DNA of 64,000 nucleotides from the human T2T-CHM13v2.0 reference genome, Homo sapiens. Below, one piece after another: positions 5,369 through 13,603 of the stretch; positions within the stretch are counted from its first letter, which is position 1, and each line of letters opens with the position of its first letter. The DNA is taken from NCBI RefSeq assembly GCF_009914755.1, contig NC_060929.1; one strand, 5' to 3'. The notes under the pieces were generated by a model. The model was not told the DNA's origin. It ran no database searches and saw nothing but the letters and a program-made list of their open reading frames with translations. The position numbers were made by a program, and so were the translations under genes.

Positions 5369-7112
5369 CTACCAGGTCTGAGATGAAAAATATGATGGAA
5401 GGGATTAATGGCAGATGAGACATTGCCAAAGAAAAGATTATAAACTAGAAGACAGCAATGGAAACTACCTAAAATGAACACACAGAGAATTATTTTTAAA
5501 AGGAAAAGACAAAGAAGACAGCTAGTGAACTGTGGGACTTCAAGTGGTCAAAATATGTGTAATTGGAGTCACCAAACGAGGAGTGAGAAAGAGCAAAATA
5601 GAAAAAAAAATTTTGAAGAATAGTCAAAAAGTGTTTTCAAATTTGGTGAAAATTATAAATCCACAGATCTAAGAATCACAATGAAACCCAAGCACACACA
5701 AAAAAAAATCAAGAAAACGACACCAAGATATATCATAATCAGATTGCTTAAAACCAGCAATAAAGAGAAAATCTTAAAAGCAGTCAGAGAAAAATGACAT
5801 ATACATGAGCAACTGGAATTGTCCTACACTGCTGGTGGGAATCTGAAATGATGCGATGGCCTTCAGCAACAGTTTCTTAAAAAGTTAATAATACACATAT
5901 CATATGCTCAGCCATTCCACTCCAAGGTATTTACATCCAAGAGAAATGAAAGAATAAATCCGTACAGGGACTGGCACGTGAATACCCATAGCAGCTTTAT
6001 TTACAATAGACAAAAACTGGAAACAATCCAAACTTCCATCAATAGCTGAATGGATAAACAAATTGTGGTATATCCATATAGTGAAGTAATACTCGGTAAT
6101 GAAAAAGAATGAATTAACTATTGTGCAAAAGCAGTTCTTTGTATAAGCACTACATAAACATACTAAAGTATCTCTCAATAACTACGCTGAGTGAAAGAAA
6201 CCAGACGAACAAAGAGTGTGTTATTCCACCCAGAGAAAAATCCTGGAAAATGAACAGAAATCAATAGTAACAAAATCAGTGGCACGTTGGTGGCAGGCAG
6301 GGAGGGATGGAAGGGAGGGAACTGAACGAGGCAGGAGGAAACTCTGGAGGGTGAGGGATGCATTCCCTATCTAGACTGTGGAGAGGGTTTCATAGTTGTG
6401 CACAGATGTCAAAATTTATTAAGTTGTGCATTTTTAATTTGTGGAGTTCACTGTATGTCAATTATACTTCAAAAAAAAAGGCAAACAACAAAAATCCCAG
6501 GCCGCGGCTTCTACAGACTTGGTGGGTGGTAGAGTGTGTGTCCTGGGTACAGAAGGCATCACACTGAGCCTCAGGTTCTGCCTGGGTTCGGTGACAGGTA
6601 AAGCACCCAGCAGAGTCATGGCAAAGGCCAATTGTGAGAGCGTCTGGCCCGGCCACCGCACTTGGCAGGAGCCACTTGGCTTTTCTCTAAGAATGTGGGT
6701 TTAATCAGTGACTCCCATTGGCACACTGAGTGACTCTCTTTCAAACCACGTCAGCAAACGCATTTCCTCAAGGGTCCCTGATAGGTCCTGAAATACATTA
6801 ACATGTTTTGAAAGGGTTGGTCTACAAACAAATGGGATTCCTCAGTAATCCTTCATTCACATTCACATTCATTATTTTTTAAAATTATTTTTGTAGAAAA
6901 TATTCACAGCAGTTTTATTAATAATAACCCAATACTGGAAACAACTCAAATGCTCATTAACAGGAGAATGAATAGTGATATAGTCATACAATGAAATACT
7001 ACTCTATAATACAAAGAGTTATTGATACGTGCAAATACATGAATAAATCTCAAAAGCACTATTTTAAGCAAAGGAACCACACATAAAAGAAGACATACCA
7101 TACCATAGGGTT

Positions 7113-7413
<301 letters not shown>

Positions 7414-9470
7414 TGAGGGTTCTATTTATATGAGGTTCTAGAACAGGCAAAACTGAGCTATTGGTGATAGAAAGCAAGATGGCGGTTACCTCTGGGTGGA
7501 GACAAGAAAGGGGCATAGGGAATTTTCTGAGATGTTAAAAATATTCTGTACTTATTGGAGATGCTGGTCATGGGCGCATATATTTGTCAACATCCATCTA
7601 ACTCTACACTTAAAATCTGTGATTTTGTGTGTAAATTATATCCTTTCTTTTTTAAGAGTTAGAACAAAAGAAAAAAAGTAAGTTGCAGGATGTGGAGGGA
7701 AATTCTCAGTGGAATCCCACAAGGAAACCGTGCCAGCCCCTCCATTTGTCCAAGCATTCTACTCGCCACGGGGTTGGATGCTACACAGACGCCAATGAAA
7801 AGGTTGCTCCCGGGAAATGTTTGGAAGCCGCTTAATGCTCCTTGCAGGGAGACATTCAGATAACATACATTGTTTCCCCAGAAATATACACACTGTGAGA
7901 GAGAAGCTTACTCCAAAAGGGTGGCTCAAAAATACAGCATTCTGTTTCTTGCGGCAACCGGTTTGCAGTGTCAAGAAACGTAAGACAATCTATGTTGTCT
8001 TTCCCACTTCATGAATGCTAAACGCTGAAGGTATTCAGCTTAGCATCTCCGAGCTGGAGAGAATGAGGACACCATCCACCTGACTTCTCTTCAAACCAGA
8101 GTCCCTTCTCCAGCACTCCTGCTCAATAGGAATCCAGGCACTTACCTGATTTGGCATGTGAGATCAGTACTTCCAGCCCATTCTTTTGGGACAACTCTTC
8201 ATTTGCTTTCAAGTTCTTAGCAGTCATTAACTAGCAATCTTCATCCTGGTATCTTTTATGTGTCAGTCGCTTTTTCCTTCAGAAGAAGGAAAGGACAGCT
8301 CCGCACAGCTCCCCACCTGTACTCTTAGGGTCAAGGGGAGCCAGGCTGTTCATTTGGTCCATCCTTTTTCAACACCACTTCTTGCCTTATGAGTGCTGCA
8401 GAAATATCCTCTAATGAAAAGAAAAGTGTCCTCCTTTAGAAACAGGAACCTCCAGGTCTTAACTACTATCCTGGGAATGAAGTCAGCCACAAAACTAAGG
8501 GATAATTGGGCAGTTAGGAAGCACCTCTTAACCTCAAAATAATACAACCCTTCCTAAGGCTGTCTTTCCACCACTACAGCTTCGCTCGTGTAGGGAATGA
8601 AGGAGTGGCCCCTCTTCAAAGACCCCCTTTGAAAATGCAGCATTTCCCAAGGAAAGCCACACATTCAGCTGCTTATTAACAGCAACATGTTTTTCGTGTT
8701 AATTTGCCGTTCACAACACACTCCTATGTGTTACCTCCTTAGGCCCTCACTAGGAGCTCCTGCAGAAGATCATGGATTATCATTATTTCCACCTATCTTT
8801 TTGGAAGATAAATCTCAAGCAGTTCCATGGCTCACCTAGACCACCTAGATGGGCAGTGGCAAAGCTGGAACTAAAAAGCAAGTCTTCCCACAGCAGGTCC
8901 TGTGCTCTTCCCATAGACAAGGCACCTGCCACCTGGTCCTCACTATTCAGGAGACTGATTGCTGTGAGAGCAGAAACAGAACGCAGGACAGTTCCTGGGA
9001 AAGGCAAGAAGAGTGCATGAGCCATTGTGTTGGGGGTGAGGAGAAGGGGCTCAGGACAGGAAGGAAGCGGGGACCAGGCCCACCTTCACTTGCTCCGAGT
9101 TTTGCCAGGCATATGTGTCCTCAGAGAAACTCACATACACCAGGTGTTCGGAATATGACCGTAGCCACAACTACTTCACAATCTTCCAAGCGAGCAAGTC
9201 AATCCATTGATTCCTCTAGTAGCGATGGATAAAAACCCAACTCAAATTGGCCTGGACAGTGATGTCGAGAGGGGCTCGGTCACGAAGCCGCAGTGCTTTT
9301 GGCAGTCCCTCAATACCCCTTCAGACTGTGTTTCTCCTTGCGCAGCAAGTCGATGCTGGGAGCTCCAACTTACAGCCGTTGGGGGTGATTTTGCGAAGGT
9401 AGTTTTTTCAAGCAAAGTTCAGTTCCCTAAAGCATACTGGCTGAAAAAGTCTTGCCCTGCTGCCCAATAG

Positions 9471-9785
<315 letters not shown>

Positions 9786-9845
9786 CTCATTATTTTTCAA
9801 AGACACACACGGCTTCTCAGAACCCGCCCTCCAGGGTTCACCATG

Positions 9846-10899
9846 CTGGGCTGGCGCAGAGACCCATCCAGGCGGTAGGAGCGGGGACAGGCGCGGGGTC
9901 GTGGAGGGCCCCGGGCTGTTCCTGATCCTCGAACTCTCTCCTCCCCACGGCCGCGGTCTCCTCCCCGGGCCCCGCGCGCCAGGCCCTGCGAAAAGCCCCA
10001 ACGGGTCCCCCGGCGACCGCCGCGCCGGCCTCTCGGTCCTGTCCTCCGAGGCGCCAGGCCTCCGCCTCCAGCGCGGGCCTCTCGGGCAGCGCCGCCCCTC
10101 CCCCTGCGCGCACGGGAGGCCGCCTGGGTTCGGCTTTGGACCAGGCGAGCAGCGCGGCGCTGGCCGCTCTGCCGGGTCAGCCCCGCGGAGACGTCTTCCC
10201 CGCTGCGCCCCGGCCCCAGCGCAGCGCCCGGGGAGCGGCCCCTCCTCGGGCAGCGGCCGGCGCCTGTGTCCCTAGCGCGGTACTGCTTCTGCCTGAGGAC
10301 TCCCCGCCGGGGTCCTCCCTGTCGCCGTCTGCGCCTCCGCGCCCTGTGGGCCGAGGCCCCGGCGCTCCTCGCTCAGCCCAACTCCCAAGGCCCAGCGGGT
10401 CCCTGCTCTGCCGTCCGGGGATCCCGCGGGTGGTCCGGAGCCCGGGGCGCGGCGCGCCGTTCATTCCCGCGTCCTGGCGGGGCCTGCTTCTTCCCGAGCC
10501 CTCTCCCTGCGGCTGGTGGTCCCAGCGTGCTGGCCGCGTCTCCCCTCTTCTCGGGACACCAGCCCTGTTGGATCAGGGCCCCCCCACAACGACCTGTGCC
10601 ACCTCATCCGCCTCTTTAAAGACCCCATCCCCAAGGGCGGCCGCATCCGGAGGCCCAGGGGTGAGGACTTCGCCACGGGAAGGAGGCACACGATTCAGCC
10701 CATGACACCGCCACCTCGGCGTGGTGCTGTAGGGGGAAGCTCAGGCACTCACCGAGGACAGGACCCGGGGAATCCGCTGGGGCTTTCAGCAGGGCCTGGC
10801 GCGCGGGGCCTGGGGAGGAGACCTGGGGAACAGCCCAGGGCCCTCCCAGAACCCGCGCCTGCCCCCCGCTGCCTGGATGGGGTCTCTGTACCAGCCCAG
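9846..10899. repeat. Long imperfect inverted repeat (arms ~9846-10075 and ~10723-10899)
   Basis: 9955-9989 vs the reverse complement of 10789-10823 is 34/35 identical; 9883-9922 vs 10827-10866 is 35/40; GGTCCTGTCCTC 10035-10046 pairs with 10754-10765. Confidence 0.9.
10400..10707 (-). mobile_element. MaLR MLT1(A/B-like) LTR relic, unusually GC-rich
   Basis: GGACACCAG...TTGGATCAGGGCCC...CTCTTTAAAGACCC...AGGACTTC...ATTCAGCCCATGACA matches the MLT1 LTR terminus pattern. Confidence 0.65.
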
Positions 10900-11271
10900 A
10901 CCAGAGCGAGTGTCAAGGGGGCTCCTCTGGCCGCGCTGCGCCCCCGCGGGGCAGCCCCAGAAGGGCCATTGCTCAGTCCTCACCAAGACCAGCGAGGCGG
11001 ATTCGGCCAGCCCCTTTCCAGAAGAGGAAGCCGAGGTTCGGAAAGGTCAACCAACTTGTCCCAGGACGCTGGCCGGTTCAGAGGCAGCTCTGGACTCAGA
11101 CCCAGGCTTCCCAATTCTAAAGCCCACTGCATGAGCCGTCAGGGCCCAGCTACAGGGTCTTTCGGGGACACTTGGACGGGATAACTTCCACAGTGAGGCG
11201 ATAAGGTCAGGCTGGTCCCATCTGGGGACCTTATAAAGTCTCTCACTGTCTAAGTGAGATGCCTGTACAGT

Positions 11272-11593
11272 GCCCACACAGCATGCACACACGTGCATGC
11301 ACACACCCACATGCACACACACACTCATGCACACACACATGCATGCACACGCCCACATGCACACATTCATGCACACACACACATGCATGCACACACATGC
11401 ACACACAGGCATACTTACGTGCATATGCATACATGAAACACGTGCACACATACACCCATGTACACACACATATGCACACATGCATACTCCTGGCACACAC
11501 GTGCACACACACCCATGTACACACACATGCATGCATTCTCCTGGCACACACATACACACTTCCACCCTCACACTAGCTCACGCTCACACACAC
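11272..11593. repeat. Degenerate (CA)n/(CATG)n microsatellite
   Basis: About 320 nt of cacacatgca-type alternating purine-pyrimidine sequence. Confidence 0.92.
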
Positions 11594-12701: not shown

Positions 12702-13002
<301 letters not shown>

Positions 13003-13295
13003 AGGCTGAAGTCTTCCCTGCCACTCCACGCATCCATCACTTACAGATGTCTACAAGGATGTCCACACTCGCAGAAAAAGCTGCTGCTCAAAGCCAAATC
13101 ATTGTTTCCACCAGGTCTGCCATGAGGCTGTGGAAAGGGCTAGGGATTAGGAGTGAGGTTACTGGGTCACCTAGGTTCAGGTGCCCATTGCCACCAGGGG
13201 CCAATCGCTGCCCCTCTCTGGGAGGCTGGATCCCATCTTACCCACGATAGAGCAGCTGTAGAGAGAGGAGGCTGTTGAGAAACTAGAGGACATGA

Positions 13296-13603
<308 letters not shown>

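What the first reader, a model, noticed from the sequence alone, without database searches (positions are those of the whole stretch)
9846..10899. Intronic CpG island framed by a long non-Alu inverted repeat
Seen: arms ~9846-10075 and ~10723-10899 are reverse complements, with blocks of 34/35 and 35/40 identity and two indels of ~20-30 nt, separated by ~650 nt. I could not match the arms to a common repeat family. Inference: a local inverted duplication, possibly kept similar by arm-to-arm gene conversion. It could form a very stable hairpin in COL23A1 pre-mRNA or give a symmetric, bidirectional regulatory element. It may also mediate inversion polymorphism of the spacer.
Basis: partly seen in the sequence, partly recalled or inferred. 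Interest (0 to 1): 0.7.

Follow-up and report, generated by a model that had tools for sequence, protein, structure and literature searches.

The report
Inverted duplicate around GC-enriched dead LTR
In the first intron of a human collagen gene, a unique 200-base stretch is present twice in opposite orientation around a dead retroelement end whose DNA is far richer in G and C than its relatives, likely the scar of an old recombination hotspot rather than a conserved hairpin, and part of it is already a published ovarian-cancer methylation marker.

Summary
The inverted repeat is real. The arms (9846-10074, 10724-10899) match at 148 of 169 aligned columns, have four gaps, and are found nowhere else in the genome.

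It is strongly shifted from A/T to G/C: 66% GC against 41-55% in 13 other copies, with about 29 W>S for 4 S>W changes. So this part of the CpG island was built from formerly AT-neutral DNA, most likely by GC-biased gene conversion at an unmethylated ancestral hotspot.

The arms differ by 8% outside CpGs, about as much as close Alu pairs, while copies of the LTR differ by 27-37%. One primate-era duplication explains this without arm-to-arm conversion.

A hairpin is predicted, but it is weaker than that of an ordinary inverted Alu pair 2 kb away. Published ovarian-cancer ctDNA marker #141 maps to 10644-10779. Orthologs could not be examined. Verdict: real, mechanistically ordinary, a neat example.

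The parts
9846..10074 (+). Left arm of the inverted repeat; CpG-rich; carries all four extra segments (9874-9879, 9920-9941, 9948-9954, 10013-10034)
   Evidence: single-copy apart from its partner
10724..10899 (-). Right arm; CpG-depleted and shorter; has a canonical-looking splice donor on the minus strand at about 10752 that the left arm lacks
10075..10319 (.). Unique core of the CpG island, GC about 0.78; no homolog found
10320..10707 (-). Solo LTR of a dispersed family (MLT1-like MaLR; name and sense strand recalled), strongly shifted to GC. Right end at 10707 is firm; left end is 10320 or 10345 (TSD 3/5 either way); similarity fades left of about 10420
10644..10779 (.). Amplicon of ovarian-cancer ctDNA methylation marker #141 (hg19 chr5:178004395-178004530; 136 bp; 7 CpGs between the primers). 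Spans the LTR end and the inner right arm
   Evidence: PMC5740748 supplement file 3 row; primers mapped; CpGs counted
9800..11050 (.). Intronic CpG island in COL23A1 intron 1
9497..9786 (-). Alu next to the island. Most CpGs of 23 window Alus (17) and the only one with more W>S than S>W changes (7:3)
6881..9483 (-). Retrocopy-like insert of chr10 sequence (poly(A) remnant, AATAAA, target-site duplication). Holds most of the RefSeq alternative COL23A1 exon 8146-9556

Best explanation
This is a single-copy local inverted duplication around an old solo LTR that has been heavily rewritten from A/T to G/C, inside an intronic CpG island; it is likely the neutral scar of a germline-unmethylated site that once served as a recombination hotspot and likely has no function as a hairpin. 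Steps: (1) Shown: a dispersed-family LTR occupies over half the spacer and carries a large excess of W>S changes and extra divergence. (2) Inferred: GC-biased gene conversion at an unmethylated, PRDM9-independent type of hotspot caused this, mostly before the arms split, since both arms are 72-77% GC yet only 8% apart outside CpGs. (3) Inferred: one repair or template-switch event in primates copied about 200 nt in inverted orientation. The right arm is more likely the copy or the faster-decaying arm (all gaps are missing sequence on its side; 13 of 17 W/S mismatches have W on its side). (4) Inferred: the island works as a minor alternative promoter on the COL23A1 strand, feeding the RefSeq exon 8146-9556. 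(5) Published: fully methylated molecules of 10644-10779 mark ovarian cancer against blood cells.
For: 14 dispersed hits at 68-85% to 10531-10708. Across 78 pairs of other copies the window copy shows mean W>S 28.6 vs S>W 4.1; the 13 others show 3.7-20.2 vs 5.2-13.3; GC 0.66 vs 0.41-0.55; CpG 12 vs 0-3. Five disjoint pairs give 34:5, 35:5, 37:5, 22:5 and 27:2. The bias holds outside CpG-prone columns (7.7:1.3) and for transversions (7.3:1.9), so it is more than CpG protection. Identity to the family falls from 0.67 to 0.34 towards the island core, while other copies stay at 0.53-0.76 with each other. The adjacent Alu shows 7:3 against 104:204 pooled, p=0.036. Arms are 8.4% apart outside CpGs, against Alu pairs 11.7% (median) and LTR copies 27% and 37%. 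PMC11161765 links gBGC to hypomethylated regions in many mammals (passages and section 8). bioRxiv 2020.06.23.168138 reports local inverted insertions of 16-709 bp at hotspots in Atm-null mice (passages). The RefSeq exon has a donor at 8146 but no AG acceptor at 9557, so it is a first exon.
Against: No orthologs, recombination map, sperm methylome or CAGE data could be examined, so dating, cause and promoter activity are inferences. Two other copies also lean W>S (L014 20.2:5.5, L012 14.0:5.2), and L014 equals or exceeds the window copy outside CpG-prone columns (8.9:1.7), so regional GC bias contributes. The retrocopy flank also leans to GC (93:47) with no gradient towards the island. The five pair tests share the window copy and are not independent. 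PMC11161765 finds a recombination deficit at such sites in the human branch, so the activity must be older. The mouse inverted insertions came with deletions and ATM loss, not as simple duplications. No PRDM9-A 13-mer is present, and RefSeq lists no functional element here. Selection for a GC-rich promoter could give the same bias. The LTR family name comes from memory.
Confidence: 0.6

Rival explanations
1. The arms are old (as old as the LTR or older) and were kept similar by repeated arm-to-arm gene conversion or template switching, which could itself be GC-biased and may have flipped the spacer at times.
For: Both arms are equally GC-rich while only 12% apart overall. Inner blocks are twice as diverged as outer ones (20% vs 10%). 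GC-biased arm conversion is described for large sex-chromosome palindromes (search listing only).
Against: The patchiness is not significant (p=0.11). Four gaps of 6-22 nt and a longest perfect run of 22 nt make current conversion unlikely. CpG loss is one-sided: 7 CpGs shared, 9 in the left arm only, 1 in the right arm only.
Confidence: 0.2
2. The repeat is kept by selection as an RNA hairpin in COL23A1 pre-mRNA or as a symmetric, bidirectional regulatory element, and GC enrichment reflects selection.
For: Arm pairing is predicted in the MFE and centroid structures; z -9.5 and -10.5; arm duplex about -330 kcal/mol; a 35-bp helix on the + strand. A RefSeq first exon starts 290 nt from the left arm.
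Against: An ordinary inverted Alu pair 2 kb away folds more strongly (z -31 and -17; duplex about -430). The longest helix on the COL23A1 strand is only 22 bp. G-U-tolerated mismatches show no strand bias (p=0.39). The arms are asymmetric in CpG content and splice donor.
Confidence: 0.12
3. The arms are long terminal inverted repeats of a rare or decayed DNA transposon that carried the LTR, masked from search by GC shift.
For: The layout of inverted ends around captured sequence resembles non-autonomous DNA transposons (recalled). The GC shift lowers search sensitivity.
Against: No third copy in three genome searches. No target-site duplication is visible at the outer ends (sequence). The arms look far younger than the LTR.
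Confidence: 0.05

Closest known systems
CpG islands shaped by GC-biased gene conversion at PRDM9-independent hotspots (PMC11161765, passages and section 8 read; PMC11323403, abstract read)
   Same: A narrow (~1.2 kb) GC peak, strong W>S excess including non-CpG sites, and CpG retention nearby.
   Different: Those papers describe genome-wide averages, mostly at gene starts. Here one dated neutral element (an LTR) records the shift in an intronic island, and an inverted duplicate sits on it. No recombination data were seen for this site.
MLT1-type MaLR solo LTRs (name recalled)
   Same: Dispersed 350-390 nt element, CA end, shared 3' 180-nt block at about 70% identity with 14 copies.
   Different: GC 0.66-0.80 instead of about 0.45; the poly(A)-signal region is erased; the left end is barely recognisable.
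Local inverted insertions at meiotic hotspots (bioRxiv 10.1101/2020.06.23.168138, passages read) and template-switch duplications
   Same: A 200-nt local segment in inverted orientation; 2 of 4 gaps are flanked by 3-nt microhomology.
   Different: The mouse events accompany deletions in Atm-null males. The junction history here cannot be reconstructed without orthologs.
X/Y palindromes with arm-to-arm conversion (search listing only)
   Same: Inverted arms around a spacer; GC-rich.
   Different: Those arms are kilobases long and over 99% identical. These are 0.2 kb and 88% identical with large gaps.
Ovarian-cancer ctDNA marker #141 'COL23A1' (PMC5740748; passages and supplement row read)
   Same: The same DNA: 10644-10779.
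   Different: The passages seen treat it only as a methylation marker and do not mention the LTR or the inverted repeat.

Membership tests
CpG island | Over 500 bp, GC above 0.55, CpG o/e above 0.65 | tested here: met
   1251 bp, GC 0.73, o/e 0.75
CpG island | Unmethylated in normal or germline cells | not testable with these tools
   Indirect only: the fully methylated pattern discriminates cancer from blood; the adjacent Alu keeps CpGs
MaLR (MLT1-like) solo LTR | Dispersed copies sharing one 350-400 nt element | tested here: met
   14 dispersed hits; copies align to each other over about 350-390 nt
MaLR (MLT1-like) solo LTR | TG...CA ends with a 5-bp target-site duplication | tested here: inconclusive
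   CA end at 10707; two TG candidates (10320, 10345), each with a 3/5 TSD match
MaLR (MLT1-like) solo LTR | Match to a curated consensus that names the subfamily | not testable with these tools
   No repeat library is available; the name is recalled
gBGC tract / fossil hotspot | W>S excess over S>W, also outside CpG sites, with raised divergence | tested here: met
gBGC tract / fossil hotspot | Bias peaked over 1-2 kb and falling off in the flanks | tested here: inconclusive
   A gradient runs along the LTR, but the flank also leans to GC without a gradient
gBGC tract / fossil hotspot | Recombination or DSB activity here in some lineage; no selective constraint | not testable with these tools
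   No maps or orthologs
Palindrome under arm-to-arm conversion | Near-identical arms | tested here: not met
   148/169 columns, four gaps, longest perfect run 22 nt
Palindrome under arm-to-arm conversion | Arms cluster by species | not testable with these tools
   No primate genomes are held
DNA transposon with terminal inverted repeats | Other copies of the ends in the genome | tested here: not met
DNA transposon with terminal inverted repeats | Target-site duplication at the outer ends | tested here: not met
   None seen by eye in the sequence
Known structured RNA family | Rfam match | tested here: not met
   Between 9846 and 10899 only one chance-level partial hit, E 0.33
L1-type retrocopy (6881-9483) | Poly(A) remnant, upstream AATAAA, target-site duplication, one source locus | tested here: met
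   The 10-nt TSD core occurs only at 6866 and 9485 in 64 kb; one paralog on C10. The 5' 105 nt are unplaced

The most novel reading that the evidence does not exclude
A fossil PRDM9-independent hotspot in one kilobase: repeated meiotic breaks turned a dead LTR into part of a new CpG island, the same breaks made the inverted duplicate, and the island then became a primate-specific alternative COL23A1 promoter that exonised a neighbouring retrocopy and is now methylated in cancer.
Probability: 0.25. Interest if true: 0.6.

Novelty: new member of a known kind. Interest (0 to 1): 0.33.

Why it matters
An LTR inside a CpG island is an internal clock. It shows directly how far neutral DNA was pushed towards GC at this site (implied equilibrium GC 0.76-0.93), which can be set against the published idea that biased gene conversion builds CpG islands. 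It also shows that a clinical methylation marker sits on repeat-derived DNA and one arm of an inverted repeat. The inverted repeat alone is a modest structural curiosity. No paper holding both COL23A1 and MLT1 was found, and none of the 15 listed (of 519) for the COL23A1 / inverted repeat / intron 1 search contained COL23A1. Most subscription papers are not searched.

Tried and rejected
1. Left arm as the GC-shifted continuation of the chr10 paralog. An anchored alignment beat 500 of 500 shuffles and ranked in the top 0.14-4% of about 4,960 chr10 windows. The target-site duplication shows the insert ends at about 9483, so I treat the match as chance.
2. Inner arms as an L2 tail: no signal (221 of 300 and 167 of 300 shuffles scored as high).
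3. Left-arm-only segments as colinear Alu pieces: p about 0.003-0.004, post hoc. This is the same size as the signal rejected in item 1, so it is unresolved and not used.
4. Arm continuing across the LTR insertion site: score 218 against 214 for the control. Rejected.
5. 10900-10958 as a direct copy of 10140-10184: p=0.04, post hoc. Not used.
6. Collagen-like exon in the right arm: Gly-Pro-rich readings are expected from GC-rich DNA (judged by eye, not translated with a tool).
7. Imprinting: no ZFP57 motif; none of the 25 listed papers (of 3,624) contained COL23A1.
8. Rfam: nothing.
9. 10070-10420, 10900-11280 and 9340-9490 have no second copy.
10. The bacterial promoter scan is irrelevant.
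11. The Alu test used a mis-summed total (110) and was redone with 104.
12. The TSD table had the LTR end one base off; one search has the corrected end.
Rows dropped: L010 (96% X/Y paralog of L005) from all LTR counts; L015 and L016 also from the gradient; the pair tests used 10 of 13 copies. Earlier scan findings were not available.

Full report
Observation. The inverted repeat is real. Strict alignment of 9846-10013 to the reverse complement of 10765-10899 scores 134, against a maximum of 33 in 200 dinucleotide shuffles. Looser scoring extends it to 10074/10724: 148 of 169 columns are identical, the quoted 34/35 and 35/40 blocks are exact, and the longest perfect run is 22 nt. There are four larger gaps (6, 22, 7 and 22 nt), all extra sequence in the left arm; two are flanked by 3-nt microhomology. 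Each arm finds only its partner in the genome, and a shared 35-nt degenerate motif with 3 mismatches hits only these two places. The island 9800-11050 has GC 0.73 and CpG o/e 0.75.

The spacer. A search with the whole island gave 17 matches: 3 to itself and 14 dispersed copies at 68-85% over window 10531-10708. These copies align with each other over about 350-390 nt and end in CA at the column of 10707. I recognise the family as an MLT1-type MaLR LTR from memory; no tool named it. Its left end is 10320 or 10345. I used 13 of the 14 copies (L010, an X/Y paralog of L005, was dropped). At columns where two other copies agree, the window copy shows on average 28.6 W>S and 4.1 S>W changes; the others show 3.7-20.2 and 5.2-13.3. 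GC is 0.66 against 0.41-0.55 and CpG count 12 against 0-3. The bias persists outside CpG-prone columns (7.7:1.3) and among transversions (7.3:1.9). Five disjoint pairs give 34:5, 35:5, 37:5, 22:5 and 27:2, with implied equilibrium GC 0.76-0.93; these tests share the window copy. Identity to the family falls from 0.67 at the right end to 0.34 towards the island core, while 11 other copies stay at 0.53-0.76 with each other; part of that fall may be alignment failure. Against this reading: L014 and L012 also lean W>S, and L014 matches the window copy outside CpG-prone columns. The controls were picked by similarity to a GC-rich query, which makes the contrast conservative.

Timing. The arms differ at 11 of 131 non-CpG columns (8.4%). 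Alu pairs in this window differ by 11.7% (median of 253; 10th percentile 8.5%). LTR copies differ by 27% among themselves and 37% from the window copy. So the arms last shared a sequence long after the LTR inserted, roughly in the age range of these Alus (anthropoid primates; age recalled), and after most of the GC shift. Of 17 W/S mismatches, 13 have S on the left (p=0.049); 7 CpGs are shared, 9 are left-only and 1 is right-only. The Alu beside the island has the most CpGs of 23 window Alus and is the only one with more W>S than S>W changes (7:3 against 104:204, p=0.036), a weak sign that low methylation and GC bias lasted into primates.

Mechanism. PMC11161765 (passages and section 8) reports gBGC at hypomethylated PRDM9-independent hotspots in 33 of 52 mammals, with a deficit in humans, and proposes this as the source of CpG-island GC. 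PMC11323403 (abstract) says GC peaks are now decaying in apes. That fits an older shift here. bioRxiv 2020.06.23.168138 (passages) shows local inverted insertions of 16-709 bp at hotspots in Atm-null mice, a precedent for the arms, though those came with deletions. That breaks caused both the GC shift and the duplication is inference.

Hairpin. The arms pair in the predicted structure, with z -9.5 on the COL23A1 strand and -10.5 on the other (12 shuffles each). The inverted Alu pair at 12706-13594 gives -31 and -17 and a stronger duplex. The longest helix is 22 bp on the COL23A1 strand and 35 bp on the other. Wobble-tolerated mismatches show no strand preference (8 vs 4, p=0.39). Nothing marks the hairpin as selected.

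Function and prior knowledge. The primers of ovarian-cancer marker #141 (PMC5740748, supplement row) map to 10644-10670 and 10755-10779: 136 bp with 7 CpGs between them, as the paper states. The fully methylated pattern marks cancer against blood cells. The RefSeq exon 8146-9556 has a perfect donor at 8146 and no acceptor at 9557, so it is a first exon starting 290 nt from the left arm. The island is therefore a plausible minor promoter; this was not tested.

Neighbouring retrocopy. That exon lies mostly in a segment with one paralog on C10, aligned from 6891 to about 9378 at 15% substitution in the part measured. It has a poly(A) remnant, AATAAA about 20 nt upstream, and a target-site duplication whose 10-nt core occurs only at 6866 and 9485. 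The donor is not a GT in the chr10 source. The insert ends before the arms, which is why I rejected an apparent match of the left arm to chr10 and give no weight to an Alu-piece resemblance of similar strength.

Verdict. A real, unique inverted duplication in a CpG island partly built from a GC-shifted LTR. The kinds of process are known and part of the DNA is a known biomarker; this combination was not found in print. Conversion, inversion and regulatory symmetry remain untested and are not needed to explain the sequence. Interest 0.33.

Noticed in passing
window 6881-9483; G000:C10:121337345-121340905: Retrocopy-like insert of a non-coding chr10 transcript (poly(A), AATAAA, 15-nt TSD). It supplies most of the RefSeq alternative COL23A1 first exon; the donor at 8146 is not GT in the source. 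The Alu at 9497 later inserted into the right TSD. The 5' 105 nt are unplaced.
   Followed up: partly
G000:C10:121338540-121339850: A 1.3-kb L1-like insertion with an internal inversion and a short TSD in the chr10 source, absent from the window copy (family recalled).
   Followed up: no
window 9826-10034: The segments present only in the left arm, plus its outer flank, resemble colinear antisense Alu left-monomer pieces (p about 0.004, post hoc). May be chance.
   Followed up: partly
window 10900-10958: Weak direct similarity to 10140-10184 starting exactly at the outer end of the right arm (p=0.04).
   Followed up: partly
window 10854-10867, minus strand: G-quadruplex-type motif in the right arm; another near 10403.
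   Followed up: no
window 12706-13594: Ordinary inverted Alu pair about 290 nt apart, with a stronger predicted duplex than the finding.
   Followed up: partly
window 11275-11559: Degenerate CA/CATG tandem array right of the island.
   Followed up: no
L014 (G000:C2:2575653-2575703): Another copy of the same LTR family, near the chr2 telomere, with a strong W>S lean (20.2:5.5).
   Followed up: no
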